Sequence record: PZ179880.1
Origin: a phage
Strand: one strand, 5' to 3'
Length of the DNA: 64,000 nucleotides
Position numbers and translations under genes: made by a program. Shown here one piece after another: positions 37,515-40,275 of this stretch. Below the pieces are notes generated by a model. That model was given only the letters and a program-made list of their open reading frames with translations, did no database searches and had not been told where the DNA came from. Within the stretch, counting starts at the first letter, position 1. Each line of letters begins with the position of its first letter.

Positions 37515-38078
37515 TTATTTACCTAGTTTAGTTATTATAGCTTCGGCAGCAGCTTTTAGTTTAGATGCGGTGTTAATACGATTTTTAATTTCAGTATACG
37601 CATCGCCAAGAACGTCAAGGCTATCAGAATAAACACTTACACTATTGCGTTCGCTATTTGAAATAGAACCTTTAGTTTTACGATCAAAATCGGTGTACAC
37701 GTCTTGAAGATCACGGGCTGCCTTCTTTGCATCATCCAATGCATCAAGAGCTTTATTCAAAGCATTAACATATTTTTTAGTGTCAAACATATTCTTAGAA
37801 ATTTTAACAGGTGCACGTTCAGGAGTAGCTAAGGCAGATTTAGGAACCTGAGCGCCTGATGCTAATTTCTTAGAAATTTTGAAAAATGCTTTATTGAATT
37901 TATTTTCTTGACTCATCGTAAAAGAACTATTATCAATGTTATACATTTCAATAGCTTTAGCTTTCCACTTAAGAAAATCGCCACGGTCTTTTGGGTCCAA
38001 TTGGAAGAATACTTTAGTAAGATCTGCTTCAGATGGTAATTTTGCTGCTTCGGTTAAAAATTCGGCATAGGTTTTCAT
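37515..38078 (-). CDS. Internal-protein-like capsid-targeted protein (187 aa)
   Basis: N-terminal MKTYAEFLTEAAKL capsid-targeting sequence. Confidence 0.6.
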   Translation of the reverse strand: MKTYAEFLTEAAKLPSEADLTKVFFQLDPKDRGDFLKWKAKAIEMYNIDNSSFTMSQENKFNKAFFKISKKLASGAQVPKSALATPERAPVKISKNMFDTKKYVNALNKALDALDDAKKAARDLQDVYTDFDRKTKGSISNSERNSVSVYSDSLDVLGDAYTEIKNRINTASKLKAAAEAIITKLGK

Positions 38079-38173
38079 TTAAAATCCTTGAAATAATTTA
38101 TCGGTTGGTTATTAATTATTTATTACTTTGTTATTATCCGTAACAGCATTCTCTATGTGATTCAAACTAAAAA

Positions 38174-38199
38174 GCCCCAACCTTTCGGTCGGGGCTAAG
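38174..38199 (-). terminator. Rho-independent terminator
   Basis: Minus strand AGCCCCGACCgaaaGGTTGGGGCTTTTT. Confidence 0.6.
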
Positions 38200-38500
38200 C
38201 CTTGCGGCAACCTTGTCGGGGTTCCACCTGCTAAGGCAAGTGTTTGTACGAAACGCCGGGATTCGAACCCGGTTATTAAGTAGTTGACGCTACTCAATAT
38301 TTTTAAAAGGCCATATCTCGACCATATCCGAACGTTCCGTCAAAAACGCTACTCGGCTTACGGCAAAGATATTTCCTCGAATCGATAATTCGGTGCGCCG
38401 TTTCTGCTGTGATAGTAAAGAGCCAGAACACAGTAAAACTGTGGGAGGAAACTATACTCCAGGGAACATCAGTCCGACGACTTACCGGTAGCGACCCGGT
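38200..38500 (-). ncRNA. Candidate small stable RNA(s): non-coding, structured region with a tRNA-like T-arm; cf. the T4 species 1/2 RNAs
   Basis: No ORF of 60 codons or more on either strand; local GC enrichment; CCGGGTTCGAATCCCGG T-arm-like hairpin; ends at a strong terminator. Confidence 0.35.
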
Positions 38501-38503
38501 TTC

Positions 38504-38854
38504 TTAATATTCTTTTAAAGAATCAATATATTCACGGCGTTTACGCCACAAATCAATTGCTTCATACGCGGATTCAGCATTTCGAATTAGCCGGCATTTA
38601 TGTAAAGACTTATGATTTTGATATTGTGTAGATAACGGAATTGTATCTAAAAGGTCTTTACGATCAAAATATTCGTAACCATCTAAACCAAATGAACGAT
38701 TTTTGAGAAATTGCCAATGACCATATTCGTTTTCGACATAAACATAATCTGCATGCTGATAAAGCAAATTAATTACACGTTCAGAAATAACAGTATCATT
38801 ATGATTAAAATAGAATGTTAAATCATGAACTACTAAATAAACATTACCTTTCAT
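38504..38854 (-). CDS. Hypothetical protein (116 aa)
   Basis: ORF between tRNA-Arg and the putative stable-RNA region. Confidence 0.5.
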   Translation of the reverse strand: MKGNVYLVVHDLTFYFNHNDTVISERVINLLYQHADYVYVENEYGHWQFLKNRSFGLDGYEYFDRKDLLDTIPLSTQYQNHKSLHKCRLIRNAESAYEAIDLWRKRREYIDSLKEY

Positions 38855-38872
38855 ATTTTCCTCACTTATAAT

Positions 38873-38948
38873 TGGTCGAGGCAGTAGGGATCGAACCTAC
38901 GACCTAGGACTTAGAAGGTCCTTGCTCTTCCTTCTGAGCTATGCCCCG
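38873..38948 (-). tRNA. tRNA-Arg (anticodon UCU), CCA encoded
   Basis: Manual cloverleaf: acceptor CGGGGCA/TGCCTCG, D-arm TAGCTCAG, anticodon loop CTTCTAA, T-loop GGTTCGATCC. Confidence 0.85.
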
Positions 38949-38951
38949 TAA

Positions 38952-39027
38952 TTGGGTGACCGATGGGAGTCGAACCCATGACTACGAGAATCACAATCTC
39001 GAGTTCTACCAACTGAACTACGGCCAC
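38952..39027 (-). tRNA. tRNA-His (anticodon GUG), discriminator C73, no encoded CCA
   Basis: Acceptor GTGGCCG/CGGTCAC, anticodon loop TTGTGAT, T-loop GGGTTCGACTCCC. Confidence 0.75.
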
Positions 39028-39120
39028 ATTAATACCTACTCCAACAATCAAGATGTCTTCACACGAAATTAAGAGAAGAGTGATCAGTTCAACCCCTATA
39101 ATCGCGTCAAGTAGGTATTA
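39028..39120 (-). ncRNA. Unassigned structured element inside the tRNA operon (not a tRNA)
   Basis: 11-bp perfectly complementary closing stem (TTAATACCTAC / GTAGGTATTAA) enclosing about 70 nt; no T-loop or D-loop. Confidence 0.3.
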
Positions 39121-39141
39121 ATGTGACAGTTGTCACAAATT

Positions 39142-39216
39142 TGGCGGACGTGATAGGATTCGAACCTATAACCAATCGCTTAACAGGCGATCGCTCTGCC
39201 ATTGAGCTACACATCC
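39142..39216 (-). tRNA. tRNA-Asn (anticodon GUU), CCA encoded
   Basis: Acceptor GGATGTG/CACGTCC, anticodon loop CTGTTAA, T-loop GGTTCGAATCC. Confidence 0.8.
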
Positions 39217-39220
39217 AAAT

Positions 39221-39307
39221 TGGTGGGGAGTGGTGGAGTCGAACCACCCGAGTCGCAATGACAATGGATTTACAGTCCACACCGCTACCTCTACGGGATA
39301 ACTCCCC
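39221..39307 (-). tRNA. tRNA-Tyr (anticodon GUA), class II with long variable arm, CCA encoded
   Basis: Acceptor GGGGAGT/ACTCCCC, anticodon loop CTGTAAA, variable arm about 15 nt, T-loop GGTTCGACTCC. Confidence 0.75.
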
Positions 39308-39317
39308 CAAATTAATT

Positions 39318-39392
39318 TGGTGGCCCTGGGTGGAATTGAACCACCATCTGGCGATTATGAGTCGCTTGCTTGAACCTTCCAGCTACAGGGCC
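39318..39392 (-). tRNA. tRNA with anticodon CAU; probably the Ile (AUA-reading, lysidine-type) species rather than Met
   Basis: Acceptor GGCCCTG/CAGGGCC with C4-G69 and C5-G68, anticodon stem-loop GCGACTCATAATCGC resembling bacterial tRNA-Ile2. Confidence 0.75.
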
Positions 39393-39393
39393 T

Positions 39394-39469
39394 TGGTGCT
39401 GATTGACGGAATCGAACCGCCGACCTTCTCATTACAAGTGAGTTGCTCTACCTACTGAGCTAAATCAGC
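39394..39469 (-). tRNA. tRNA-Thr (anticodon UGU)
   Basis: Acceptor GCTGATT/AATCAGC, D-arm TAGCTCAGTAGG, anticodon loop CTTGTAA. Confidence 0.85.
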
Positions 39470-39474
39470 AAAAC

Positions 39475-39564
39475 TGGCGGAGGCGATAGGATTTGAACCT
39501 ATGAGTCGCCGGAGCGACTGCCGGTTTTCAAGACCGGTGCATTAAACCACTCCGCCACGCCTCC
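39475..39564 (-). tRNA. tRNA-Ser (anticodon UGA), class II
   Basis: Acceptor GGAGGCG/CGCCTCC, anticodon arm CCGGTCTTGAAAACCGG, long variable arm. Confidence 0.85.
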
Positions 39565-39566
39565 AG

Positions 39567-39640
39567 TCTCCGTGGCAGGATTTGAACCTACGACATTCTG
39601 CTCCCAAAGCAGACGCTCTACCAAACTGAGCTACACGGAG
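39567..39640 (-). tRNA. tRNA-Pro (anticodon UGG), no encoded CCA
   Basis: Acceptor CTCCGTG/CACGGAG, anticodon loop TTTGGGA, T-loop GGTTCAAATCC. Confidence 0.85.
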
Positions 39641-39650
39641 TAAATTAAAT

Positions 39651-39724
<74 letters not shown>

Positions 39725-39728
39725 AAAT

Positions 39729-39816
39729 TTGGTGCGAGAAGTGGGACTCGAACCCACAAGGAAATCATTCCGCAGCATTTTAAGTGCTGTGCCTTTACCA
39801 ATTTGGCCATTCTCGC
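39729..39816 (-). tRNA. tRNA-Leu (anticodon UAA), class II
   Basis: Acceptor GCGAGAA/TTCTCGC, D-arm TGGCCAAATTGGTAAAGGC, anticodon loop CTTAAAA, long variable arm. Confidence 0.85.
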
Positions 39817-39817
39817 G

Positions 39818-39890
39818 CTGGGAATAAAGGACTCGAACCTTTGCATCCTGGAATCAAAATCCAGTGCCTTACCAACTTGGCTAATTCCCA
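39818..39890 (-). tRNA. tRNA-Gln (anticodon UUG), U1-A72 first pair, no encoded CCA; abuts tRNA-Leu
   Basis: Acceptor TGGGAAT/ATTCCCA, D-arm GCCAAGTTGGTAAGGC, anticodon loop TTTTGAT. Confidence 0.8.
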
Positions 39891-39987: not shown

Positions 39988-40275
39988 TTACCATTTATAA
40001 TAATACATATTTACGATGCATTCAAGACCCAAAGGATTCTTGAAAATATCATATTCAAGAGGACCTTTTTCTGTTTCAATAAAGAAATCAAAATTTACTG
40101 TATTAAATTTACGTTCTTCCTTCACTAATTTAACTTGAGAAGATGAACGGTCAATGTAAACCTTTTCAACTTCAAAACATGTTAAAATGCCATAATCATC
40201 AATCAAAGCTTTAGCCGCGTCTTGATCATATTTATATCCATTTTCAATGGATGATACTTTCGCATAAAGAATCAT
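39988..40275 (-). CDS. Hypothetical protein (95 aa)
   Basis: ORF upstream of the tRNA operon. Confidence 0.5.
   Translation of the reverse strand: MILYAKVSSIENGYKYDQDAAKALIDDYGILTCFEVEKVYIDRSSSQVKLVKEERKFNTVNFDFFIETEKGPLEYDIFKNPLGLECIVNMYYYKW

What the first reader, a model, noticed from the sequence alone, without database searches (positions are those of the whole stretch)
38161..38500. Candidate small stable RNA with a tRNA-like T-arm downstream of the tRNA operon
About 300 nt with no ORF on either strand and locally higher GC. On the minus strand it carries a canonical T-arm-like hairpin (CCGGG-TTCGAAT-CCCGG) without a complete cloverleaf, and ends in a strong intrinsic terminator (GCCCCGACC-GAAA-GGTTGGGGC-UUUUU). 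T4 is known to make two small stable RNAs (species 1 and 2) of unknown function near its tRNA genes; this may be the counterpart, in a different arrangement.
Basis: partly seen in the sequence, partly recalled or inferred. Interest (0 to 1): 0.55.

Follow-up and report, generated by a model that had tools for sequence, protein, structure and literature searches.

The report
T4 species 1 and 2 RNAs
This stretch holds this phage's copies of two small stable RNAs (rnaD and rnaC) known from phage T4 since the 1970s, so it is a rediscovery; their function is still unknown, and one of them folds like a tRNA with two extra arms that clasp each other.

Summary
On the minus strand, 38507-38169 is the homolog of the T4 segment annotated rnaD (species 2 RNA) and rnaC (species 1 RNA), followed by a conserved 3' trailer and the intrinsic terminator of the tRNA operon. 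T4 matches at 91% identity and 810 phage records match in all.

It is two RNAs, not one:
- rnaD: 38507-38392.
- rnaC: 38385-38247. It is 139 nt and differs from T4 rnaC at one base.

The T-arm hairpin (38272-38256) belongs to rnaC. With 23 distinct homologs from eight Tevenvirinae genera, covariation supports a tRNA-shaped four-way junction:
- a 7-bp acceptor-like stem stacked on a canonical T arm;
- two non-tRNA arms whose loops (UUGACG and CGUCAA) are complementary in every homolog, with one compensatory change.

rnaD has a conserved base and a hypervariable arm.

The two RNAs are independent modules. Karam-, Moon- and Gelderlandviruses carry rnaC alone, inside their tRNA arrays. Dhakavirus IME08 carries rnaD alone.

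No Rfam family, tRNA finder or tmRNA finder recognises either RNA. The papers I could search still call the function unknown.

Verdict: already known, low interest. The structural detail gives testable hypotheses.

The parts
38392..38507 (-). rnaD homolog (T4 species 2 RNA), 116 nt. Its 5' end overlaps the TAA stop codon (38506-38504) of the upstream ORF.
   Evidence: Alignment to the T4 rnaD annotation. 747 phage records match.
38484..38500 (-). rnaD 5' hairpin: 5-bp stem ACCGG/CCGGU with the invariant 7-nt loop GUCGCUA.
   Evidence: RNAalifold on 19 variants. The closing pair covaries: A-U in 10, G-C in 6, G-U in 3.
38393..38481 (-). rnaD basal helix (38481-38475 pairs with 38400-38393) enclosing the hypervariable long arm. 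The window carries arm type A, as in T2.
   Evidence: The basal helix is invariant, so it gives no covariation evidence. At least three unrelated arm sequences each fold as a long hairpin.
38386..38391 (-). 6-nt spacer GAAUUA between rnaD and rnaC.
38247..38385 (-). rnaC homolog (T4 species 1 RNA), 139 nt, with a tRNA-shaped four-way junction.
   Evidence: Differs from T4 rnaC at one base. The covariance model built from the alignment that includes this window sequence matches nowhere else in the window above noise (next best 11.7 bits). The structure is supported by covariation.
38378..38384 (-). rnaC acceptor-like stem, 5' strand CGAUUCG. It pairs with 38255-38249 (CGUUUCG), with two U-U mismatches.
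   Evidence: helix 1. Pair 4/139 is A-U in 12 sequences and G-C in 11. In the Tegunavirus homologs the two U-U positions are U-A and C-G.
38308..38377 (-). rnaC arm I, a long interrupted hairpin in the position of the D arm.
   Evidence: helices 2-4: 12 of 23 pairs show changes on both sides. The Gelderlandvirus-type homologs replace the sequence but keep the length and the apical loop.
38338..38343 (-). Apical loop motif UUGACG of arm I, proposed to kiss the CGUCAA loop of arm II (38289-38284).
   Evidence: helix 5: 100% complementary in 23 of 23 sequences. One compensatory change (C-G to U-A) occurs in fHe-Yen9-01 and L030.
38274..38299 (-). rnaC arm II: 10-bp stem with the 6-nt loop CGUCAA.
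   Evidence: helix 6: 8 of 10 pairs show changes on both sides.
38256..38272 (-). rnaC T arm, CCGGG-UUCGAAU-CCCGG.
   Evidence: helix 7: 2 of 5 pairs covary (CCGGG/CCCGG, CCUGG/CCAGG, CUUGG/CCAAG).
38197..38246 (-). Conserved 3' trailer with small hairpins (CACUUGC/GCAGGUG and AACC/GGUU).
   Evidence: (fold): nearly invariant in 11 distinct variants, including IME08, which lacks rnaC.
38169..38196 (-). Intrinsic terminator of the tRNA/small-RNA operon.
   Evidence: 10-bp stem, 7 G-C pairs, GAAA loop, U run. PMC2330249 states that the T4 operon transcript ends after the species I gene.
38504..38854 (-). Context: 116-aa ORF of unknown function between tRNA-Arg and rnaD. T4 has nothing at this position.
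   Evidence: phrog_3355, E = 8e-53.
38873..39890 (-). Context: array of 11 tRNA genes upstream on the same strand.

Best explanation
The region encodes the T-even phage small stable RNAs species 2 (rnaD, 38507-38392) and species 1 (rnaC, 38385-38247).

Transcription and processing (inferred from homology and from the T4 literature): both RNAs are made as the 3' end of the tRNA-operon transcript, which stops at the terminator at 38196-38169. Host tRNA-processing enzymes then cut them out of the polycistronic precursor.

rnaC structure (shown by covariation): rnaC is tRNA-shaped. A 7-bp acceptor-like helix stacks on a canonical T arm. That is the minihelix RNase P and 3' trimming enzymes recognise, and it explains why the RNA is excised and is stable. 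The D and anticodon arms are replaced by two non-decoding arms whose loops are complementary to each other.

rnaD structure: rnaD is a separate module with a conserved hairpin and basal helix and a fast-changing long arm.

Function (inferred only): rnaC most likely acts as a non-decoding tRNA mimic that occupies a tRNA-binding host or phage factor. I give this reading about 0.3. rnaD most likely acts in a host-specific interaction.
For: Identity:
- 91% identity to the T4 segment annotated rnaC and rnaD. Other records (RB27, Kha5h, GiZh, RB59, RB9) annotate the same features on their homologs.
- The covariance model has a single match in the window apart from an 11.7-bit noise match.

Operon and terminator:
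- Same strand as the 11 tRNAs, with the terminator in place.
- PMC2330249 describes a ~1.75-kb T4 primary transcript that is the precursor of eight tRNAs and the species I and II RNAs and ends after species I.
- A Northern blot validated the late timing of the small RNAs in T4; a riboprobe is described only for RNAC (PMC9697503).

rnaC structure:
- 94.6% of cells are paired, against 87.6% in shuffles and 36-47% when partners are slid.
- 24 pairs show changes on both sides, against 8.6 in shuffles and 4-6 when slid.
- The loop-loop helix is complementary in 23 of 23 sequences, with one compensatory change. It is kept where the rest of arm I is replaced.

Treated like a tRNA gene: in PG7, KM16, Melville and Pet-CM3-4, rnaC sits between tRNA-Trp and tRNA-Gly with tRNA-like spacing.

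Selection: rnaC is at least 95% identical in 684 of 751 records. rnaD is below 90% identical in 541 of 747.

Host-specific role for rnaD: one convergent SNP in rnaD arose in all three lines of T4-like phage BW1 evolved on E. coli ECOR34 (PMC12685909).
Against: - No experiment on this phage shows the transcripts or their ends.
- The processing steps are carried over from T4 and from my memory of older papers that are not in the searchable library.
- The function is unknown in every paper I could read (PMC3014915, PMC9697503, PMC12685909).
- The decoy idea has no direct support. The annotated mature rnaC ends in ...GUA with no CCA, and it has no anticodon-like loop, so it cannot mimic a substrate of anticodon nucleases or of enzymes that act on the CCA end.
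- Diversity is modest. The covariance model reports an effective sequence number of 1.06, so the covariation rests on about four lineages.
- The loop-loop contact rests on a single compensatory event.
- rnaD folds no better than shuffled sequence (z = -0.2 to -1.3).
Confidence: 0.9

Rival explanations
1. The two RNAs are inert by-products. They would be relics of tRNA genes that persist only because their minihelix or hairpins make the operon's 3' end process correctly, or protect it from 3' exonucleases, with no activity in trans.
For: In this window and in T4 they lie at the 3' end of the operon, just before the terminator. The trailer is as conserved as rnaC. No function has been found in 50 years (PMC3014915).
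Against: In Karam-, Moon- and Gelderlandviruses rnaC is internal to the tRNA array, so it cannot be a 3' protector there. Loop sequences and a tertiary contact far from the processing sites are conserved. Near-identity across 684 records exceeds what a processing signal needs. A convergent adaptive SNP arose in rnaD (PMC12685909).
Confidence: 0.25
2. The region is protein-coding. The 61-aa (38112-38297) and 42-aa (38303-38431) minus-strand ORFs, or the ORFs that some GenBank records annotate over it, would be real small proteins.
For: Mechanical ORFs exist. Many records list a 'hypothetical protein' under the match.
Against: The ORFs use TTG or GTG starts, and the 61-aa ORF runs through the terminator hairpin. 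Substitutions among homologs are compensatory in RNA stems rather than codon-patterned. Homologs carry length differences of one to two bases, not multiples of three (138-141 nt). In T4 the locus is annotated as two stable RNAs, and a Northern blot there (riboprobe described for RNAC) supports it (PMC9697503).
Confidence: 0.02
3. rnaC is a real but unusual decoding tRNA, with an intron or an oversized variable arm, or a tmRNA-like molecule.
For: The acceptor-like stem and the T arm are canonical in geometry. ARAGORN and the GenBank record of PG7 call the 3' 95 nt of its homolog 'tRNA-Met'. Rfam tRNA-Sec gives a weak 17-bit match at 38248-38340.
Against: ARAGORN finds no tRNA or tmRNA here or in T4. 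No Rfam tRNA, tmRNA or YrlA match covers it in five genera. The acceptor pairing implied by the PG7 call is not kept in KM16 (A-C mismatch), whereas the pairing of the two termini covaries. There is no 7-nt anticodon loop, no encoded CCA and no G3-U70.
Confidence: 0.03
4. rnaC and/or rnaD are base-pairing regulatory small RNAs that act on host or phage mRNAs through their conserved single-stranded motifs (rnaD GUUCCCUG, hairpin loop GUCGCUA, UCACAG).
For: Invariant unpaired motifs lie inside an otherwise variable rnaD. Both RNAs are reported as late (PMC9697503).
Against: No target was predicted or tested here. The conserved rnaC loops are complementary to each other, not free. The 2010 review notes that no trans-acting T4 small RNA has been characterised (PMC3014915).
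Confidence: 0.15

Closest known systems
Phage T4 rnaC (species 1 RNA) and rnaD (species 2 RNA), NC_000866.4 70908-71046 and 71053-71171
   Same: Homologous sequence: rnaC differs at one of 139 bases, and rnaD has identical ends. Same order, same 6-nt spacer length, same trailer and terminator, and the same position at the 3' end of the tRNA operon.
   Different: The central arm of rnaD is a different sequence, of the T2 type. A 116-aa ORF separates tRNA-Arg from rnaD. The base after rnaD's ...CACC is G here and A in T4, so a 3' CCA is not fully encoded here.
tRNA (Rfam RF00005)
   Same: A 7-bp acceptor-like helix continuous with a 5-bp T stem and a UUCGAAU loop. A four-way junction. Located in tRNA arrays with tRNA-like spacing, and presumably cut by RNase P.
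   Different: No D arm, no anticodon arm or anticodon, and no CCA. Two U-U mismatches in the acceptor stem. 139 nt long. Two extra arms joined by complementary loops. Not detected by ARAGORN or Rfam.
Other tRNA mimics that are not tRNAs: the tmRNA tRNA-like domain and bacterial Y-RNA-like YrlA (Rfam RF02553)
   Same: They reuse an acceptor/T-arm module as a handle for tRNA-processing or tRNA-binding proteins within a larger non-decoding RNA.
   Different: rnaC has no tag reading frame and no G3-U70 alanine identity. It has no Ro-binding terminal stem. No Rfam match covers rnaC.

Membership tests
T4 rnaC (species 1 RNA) | Sequence homology to the T4 rnaC gene over its full length | tested here: met
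   One difference from T4 in 139 nt. The blastn query of rnaC plus flanks is 99.3% identical to T4 isolate OL964745.1 and to RB9, whose record annotates rnaC there.
T4 rnaC (species 1 RNA) | Located on the tRNA-operon strand, downstream of rnaD and upstream of the operon terminator | tested here: met
T4 rnaC (species 1 RNA) | A stable ~140-nt transcript accumulates in infected cells | not testable with these tools
   Shown for T4 by Northern blot (PMC9697503), not for this phage.
T4 rnaD (species 2 RNA) | Sequence homology to the T4 rnaD gene | tested here: met
   79% identity overall, with the 5' ~40 nt and 3' ~25 nt identical and the central arm replaced. 99-100% identical to T2 and many Tequatroviruses.
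T4 rnaD (species 2 RNA) | Lies directly 5' of rnaC, separated by a 6-nt spacer | tested here: met
tRNA | Complete cloverleaf with D arm and a 7-nt anticodon loop, detected by tRNA finders | tested here: not met
   ARAGORN finds none. No Rfam tRNA match at the gathering score or at E up to 10; only tRNA-Sec at 17 bits against a cut-off of 47.
tRNA | Acceptor stem of 7 bp continuous with a 5-bp T stem and a T loop | tested here: met
   Covariation in both helices.
tmRNA | tRNA-like domain plus a tag-peptide reading frame, detected by ARAGORN or Rfam | tested here: not met
YrlA / bacterial Y RNA | Match to Rfam RF02553 | tested here: not met
   No match over rnaC or rnaD in the window or in four diverse loci. 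The only YrlA matches lie on true tRNAs, at 22-29 bits against a cut-off of 69.
Intrinsic (rho-independent) terminator | G+C-rich hairpin directly followed by a U run | tested here: met
   10-bp stem, 7 G-C pairs, GAAA loop, five U.

The most novel reading that the evidence does not exclude
rnaC would be a compact tRNA-shaped decoy: an acceptor/T minihelix plus two arms that clasp each other. It would titrate or block a host tRNA-directed factor, for example an immune effector or a processing enzyme. rnaD's fast-evolving arm would be a host-specificity determinant. The pair would then be RNA-based counter-defence modules that T-even phages shuffle independently.
Probability: 0.12. Interest if true: 0.7.

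Novelty: already known. Interest (0 to 1): 0.25.

Why it matters
As a finding it is a rediscovery. [quoted passage not shown]

It still matters for two practical reasons:
- No Rfam family exists for either RNA. Most of the roughly 800 phage records that carry them leave them unannotated, annotate spurious proteins over them, or in one case (PG7) annotate a false tRNA-Met. A covariance model would correct hundreds of annotations.
- Their function has been open for 50 years. The published convergent SNP in rnaD adds a fourth.

Tried and rejected
- Rfam at gathering thresholds on the whole window, and at E up to 10 on 38000-38900. Only noise-level matches.
- Rfam at E up to 1 on four loci from other genera. 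Nothing covers rnaC or rnaD.
- ARAGORN for tRNA and tmRNA. Nothing in the window or in T4. The PG7 'tRNA-Met' call is a partial, lineage-specific artefact whose acceptor pairing is not conserved.
- A scan of 185,579 bacterial and archaeal species genomes with an rnaC-specific pattern. Zero matches, so no cellular homolog was found.
- The metagenome scan and the IMG/VR scans added few new variants. Diversity stays limited to Tevenvirinae.
- Literature searches for a function or for tRNA-like anti-defence RNAs in T4 found no functional study. The Miller et al. 2003 T4 genome review was not held under the id I tried (PMC150520), and the 1970s-80s papers could not be read here.
- A sarcin-ricin (AGUA/GAA) reading of arm I, considered by eye. 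Rejected because the Gelderlandvirus-type arm lacks it.
- A promoter reading of the conserved TTGACG in arm I. Rejected because no -10 element follows and because the change to TTGATG is compensated in the partner loop.
- Possible pairing of rnaD's GAAACG with rnaC's CGUUUC in the dimeric precursor. There is no variation to test it.

Full report
**What is there**

Read on the minus strand, window 38520-38160 runs from the stop codon of a 116-aa ORF to a strong terminator.
- The hairpin CCGGG-TTCGAAT-CCCGG lies at 38272-38256.
- The terminator AGCCCCGACC-GAAA-GGTTGGGGCT-TTTTT lies at 38196-38169.
- G+C is 0.47 in 38150-38449, against 0.30-0.36 in the flanks.
- ARAGORN finds 11 tRNA genes at 38873-39890 on the same strand and nothing in the finding's interval. 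Rfam agrees.
- Only short mechanical ORFs of up to 61 aa, with TTG or GTG starts, overlap the region.

The small corrections are that the feature begins at 38507 and that transcripts should end in the U run, near 38169-38172.

**Identity**

blastn of 38100-38560 against 50,697 phage records finds 810 records. Phage T4 (NC_000866.4 70827-71168) matches at 91% identity. That T4 segment is annotated rnaD ('small, stable RNA; species 2 RNA') and rnaC ('species 1 RNA'), and it lies directly after tRNA-Arg.

The pairwise alignment and exact-string mapping give these coordinates in the window:
- rnaD: 38507-38392.
- 6-nt spacer: 38391-38386.
- rnaC: 38385-38247.
- 50-nt trailer: 38246-38197.
- Terminator: 38196-38169.

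rnaC differs from T4 at one base. rnaD keeps its first ~40 and last ~25 nt, but its centre is a different sequence, 99-100% identical to that of T2 and many other Tequatroviruses. Other GenBank records (RB27, Kha5h, GiZh, RB59, RB9) annotate rnaC and/or rnaD on their homologs.

The 'different arrangement' is limited to a 116-aa ORF of unknown function (phrog_3355) between tRNA-Arg and rnaD, and a tRNA array with extra tRNAs and no segB. Many relatives share this layout. It agrees with the T2L map described in PMC2330249.

**Structure of rnaC**

I collected homologs from GenBank phages, IMG/VR and metagenomes. They yield 23 distinct rnaC sequences from Tequatro-, Mosig-, Gapriver-, Karam-, Moon-, Kanagawa-, Teguna- and Gelderlandvirus.

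RNAalifold and a pair count on a structure I specified, pseudoknot included, support a four-way junction:
- An acceptor-like stem (nt 2-8 with 131-137). Position 4/139 is A-U in 12 sequences and G-C in 11. The two central U-U mismatches become U-A and C-G in the Tegunavirus homologs.
- A long interrupted arm I.
- A 10-bp arm II, in which 8 of 10 pairs change on both sides.
- A canonical T arm, in which 2 of 5 pairs covary.

Overall figures:
- 94.6% of cells pair, against 87.6% in shuffles and 36-47% when the partners are slid by 1-3 columns.
- 24 pairs change on both sides, against 8.6 in shuffles and 4-6 when slid.

The apical loop of arm I (UUGACG, 38343-38338) is complementary to the loop of arm II (CGUCAA, 38289-38284) in all 23 sequences. 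In fHe-Yen9-01 and L030 it reads UUGAUG with CAUCAA, a compensatory change. In the Gelderlandvirus-type homologs (Melville, L011) the rest of arm I is a different sequence, yet the loop is kept.

I read this as a loop-loop (kissing) contact. It rests on one compensatory event plus invariance, so it is likely rather than proven. I could not establish whether the older literature already describes it.

rnaC alone folds with z = -4.56.

**Structure of rnaD**

Nineteen variants share:
- a 5' hairpin at 38500-38484, whose closing pair covaries (A-U 10, G-C 6, G-U 3);
- an invariant basal helix;
- invariant unpaired motifs (GUUCCCUG, UCACAG).

Between these lie at least three unrelated arm sequences: the window/T2/UPEC01 type, the T4 type and the IME08/SP18/VR25 type. 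Each folds as a long hairpin. Thermodynamic support is weak (z = -0.2 to -1.3).

**Distribution and modularity**

- rnaC is at least 95% identical in 684 of 751 records.
- rnaD is below 90% identical in 541 of 747 records.
- In PG7, KM16, Melville and Pet-CM3-4, rnaC sits alone between tRNA-Trp and tRNA-Gly, spaced like a tRNA gene.
- In Dhakavirus IME08, rnaD runs straight into the trailer and terminator with rnaC precisely absent.
- A covariance model built from the alignment finds one rnaC in the window (164 bits; this sequence was part of the training alignment; the next best match scores 11.7 bits). It finds none in the IME08, VR26 or UPEC01 loci.
- An rnaC-specific pattern has no match in 185,579 bacterial and archaeal species genomes.
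- The trailer is nearly invariant in 11 distinct variants.

**How it most likely works**

Shown: homology, operon position, terminator, the rnaC fold, and module independence.

Taken from the literature:
- The T4 operon is transcribed as one ~1.75-kb precursor that ends after species I (PMC2330249).
- Both RNAs are classed as late RNAs. A Northern blot validated this; a riboprobe is described only for RNAC (PMC9697503).
- Their roles are unknown (PMC3014915, PMC9697503).

Inferred:
- The acceptor/T minihelix of rnaC provides the RNase P site that creates its 5' end. The spacer would then be trimmed back to give the rnaD 3' end.
- Exonucleases trim rnaC to within two nucleotides of the helix.
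- This is why a non-tRNA survives in a tRNA array.

For function I commit to a non-decoding tRNA mimic that occupies a tRNA-binding factor, at a probability of about 0.3. The main rival is an inert processing or stability module, at about 0.25.

For rnaD, two things point to a host-specific interaction: its hypervariable arm, and the report that a single SNP in rnaD arose convergently in all three lines of T4-like phage BW1 evolved on E. coli ECOR34 (PMC12685909).

Against the decoy idea:
- The annotated mature rnaC has no CCA.
- It has no anticodon-like loop.
- Nothing direct supports the idea.

**Comparison with known families**

It is a member of the T4 rnaC and rnaD families: sequence and synteny tests are met, and expression could not be tested here. 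It is not a tRNA, a tmRNA or a YrlA RNA. Those tests were run and not met, although rnaC shares the acceptor/T module with all three. The PG7 'tRNA-Met' of 95 nt is the 3' two-thirds of its rnaC homolog. Its implied acceptor pairing breaks in KM16.

**Verdict**

Already known, low interest as a discovery (0.25). Three points remain useful:
- Neither RNA has an Rfam family.
- Both are widely unannotated or misannotated.
- The fold, the loop-loop contact and the modularity make the old question of their function more approachable.

**Caveats**

- Effective sequence diversity is small (effective number 1.06).
- Cell counts are inflated by shared ancestry.
- The processing details rest on T4 and partly on my recollection of papers I could not read here.

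Noticed in passing
window 39028-39141 (minus strand), between tRNA-Asn and tRNA-His: An unannotated structured element of about 105 nt lies directly 5' of tRNA-His. Its MFE is -35.7 kcal/mol with z = -4.17. It is closed by a ~19-bp helix whose 3' strand runs into the first bases of tRNA-His. It is conserved in 356 phage records, including Klebsiella and Enterobacter T4-like phages, upstream of tRNA-His wherever that gene is annotated. Three pairs of the closing helix covary among 6 variants. It could be an RNase III site, a leader that sets the unusual tRNA-His 5' end, or another small RNA.
   Followed up: partly
window 38197-38246 (minus strand): The 50-nt trailer between rnaC and the terminator is nearly invariant across 11 distinct variants. 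It is retained in IME08, which lacks rnaC. That is more conserved than a passive spacer should be. It may hold a processing site.
   Followed up: partly
L003 1554-1648 (Enterobacter phage PG7, KJ101592.1 75846-75940): The GenBank record and ARAGORN call a 95-nt 'tRNA-Met' here. It is the 3' two-thirds of the rnaC homolog, so it is a misannotation. Many other records annotate a 'hypothetical protein' over rnaC or rnaD, or annotate nothing.
   Followed up: yes
window 39221-39307 (minus strand): tRNA-Tyr scores only 30.3 bits against the Rfam tRNA model, whose cut-off is 29. The other ten tRNAs score 58-74 bits. The Pet-CM3-4 record labels a tRNA with the same GTA anticodon 'tRNA-Pseudo-GTA'; I did not test whether it is homologous.
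   Followed up: no
window 38396-38401 and 38250-38255 (minus strand): rnaD's 3' GAAACG is perfectly complementary to rnaC's 3' acceptor strand CGUUUC. In the dimeric precursor it could compete with rnaC's own mismatched 5' strand. No sequence variation was available to test this.
   Followed up: no
window 40229-40236 (minus strand): TATAAATA, which I recall as the T4 late-promoter consensus, lies about 340 nt upstream of the first tRNA gene. This fits the published late timing of rnaC and rnaD. The count of this motif in the window is no higher than chance.
   Followed up: no
window 38484-38500 compared with 38256-38272: The rnaD 5' hairpin (ACCGG-GUCGCUA-CCGGU) resembles the rnaC T arm (CCGGG-UUCGAAU-CCCGG) in size and partly in sequence. 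rnaD may descend from a tRNA-like element too.
   Followed up: no
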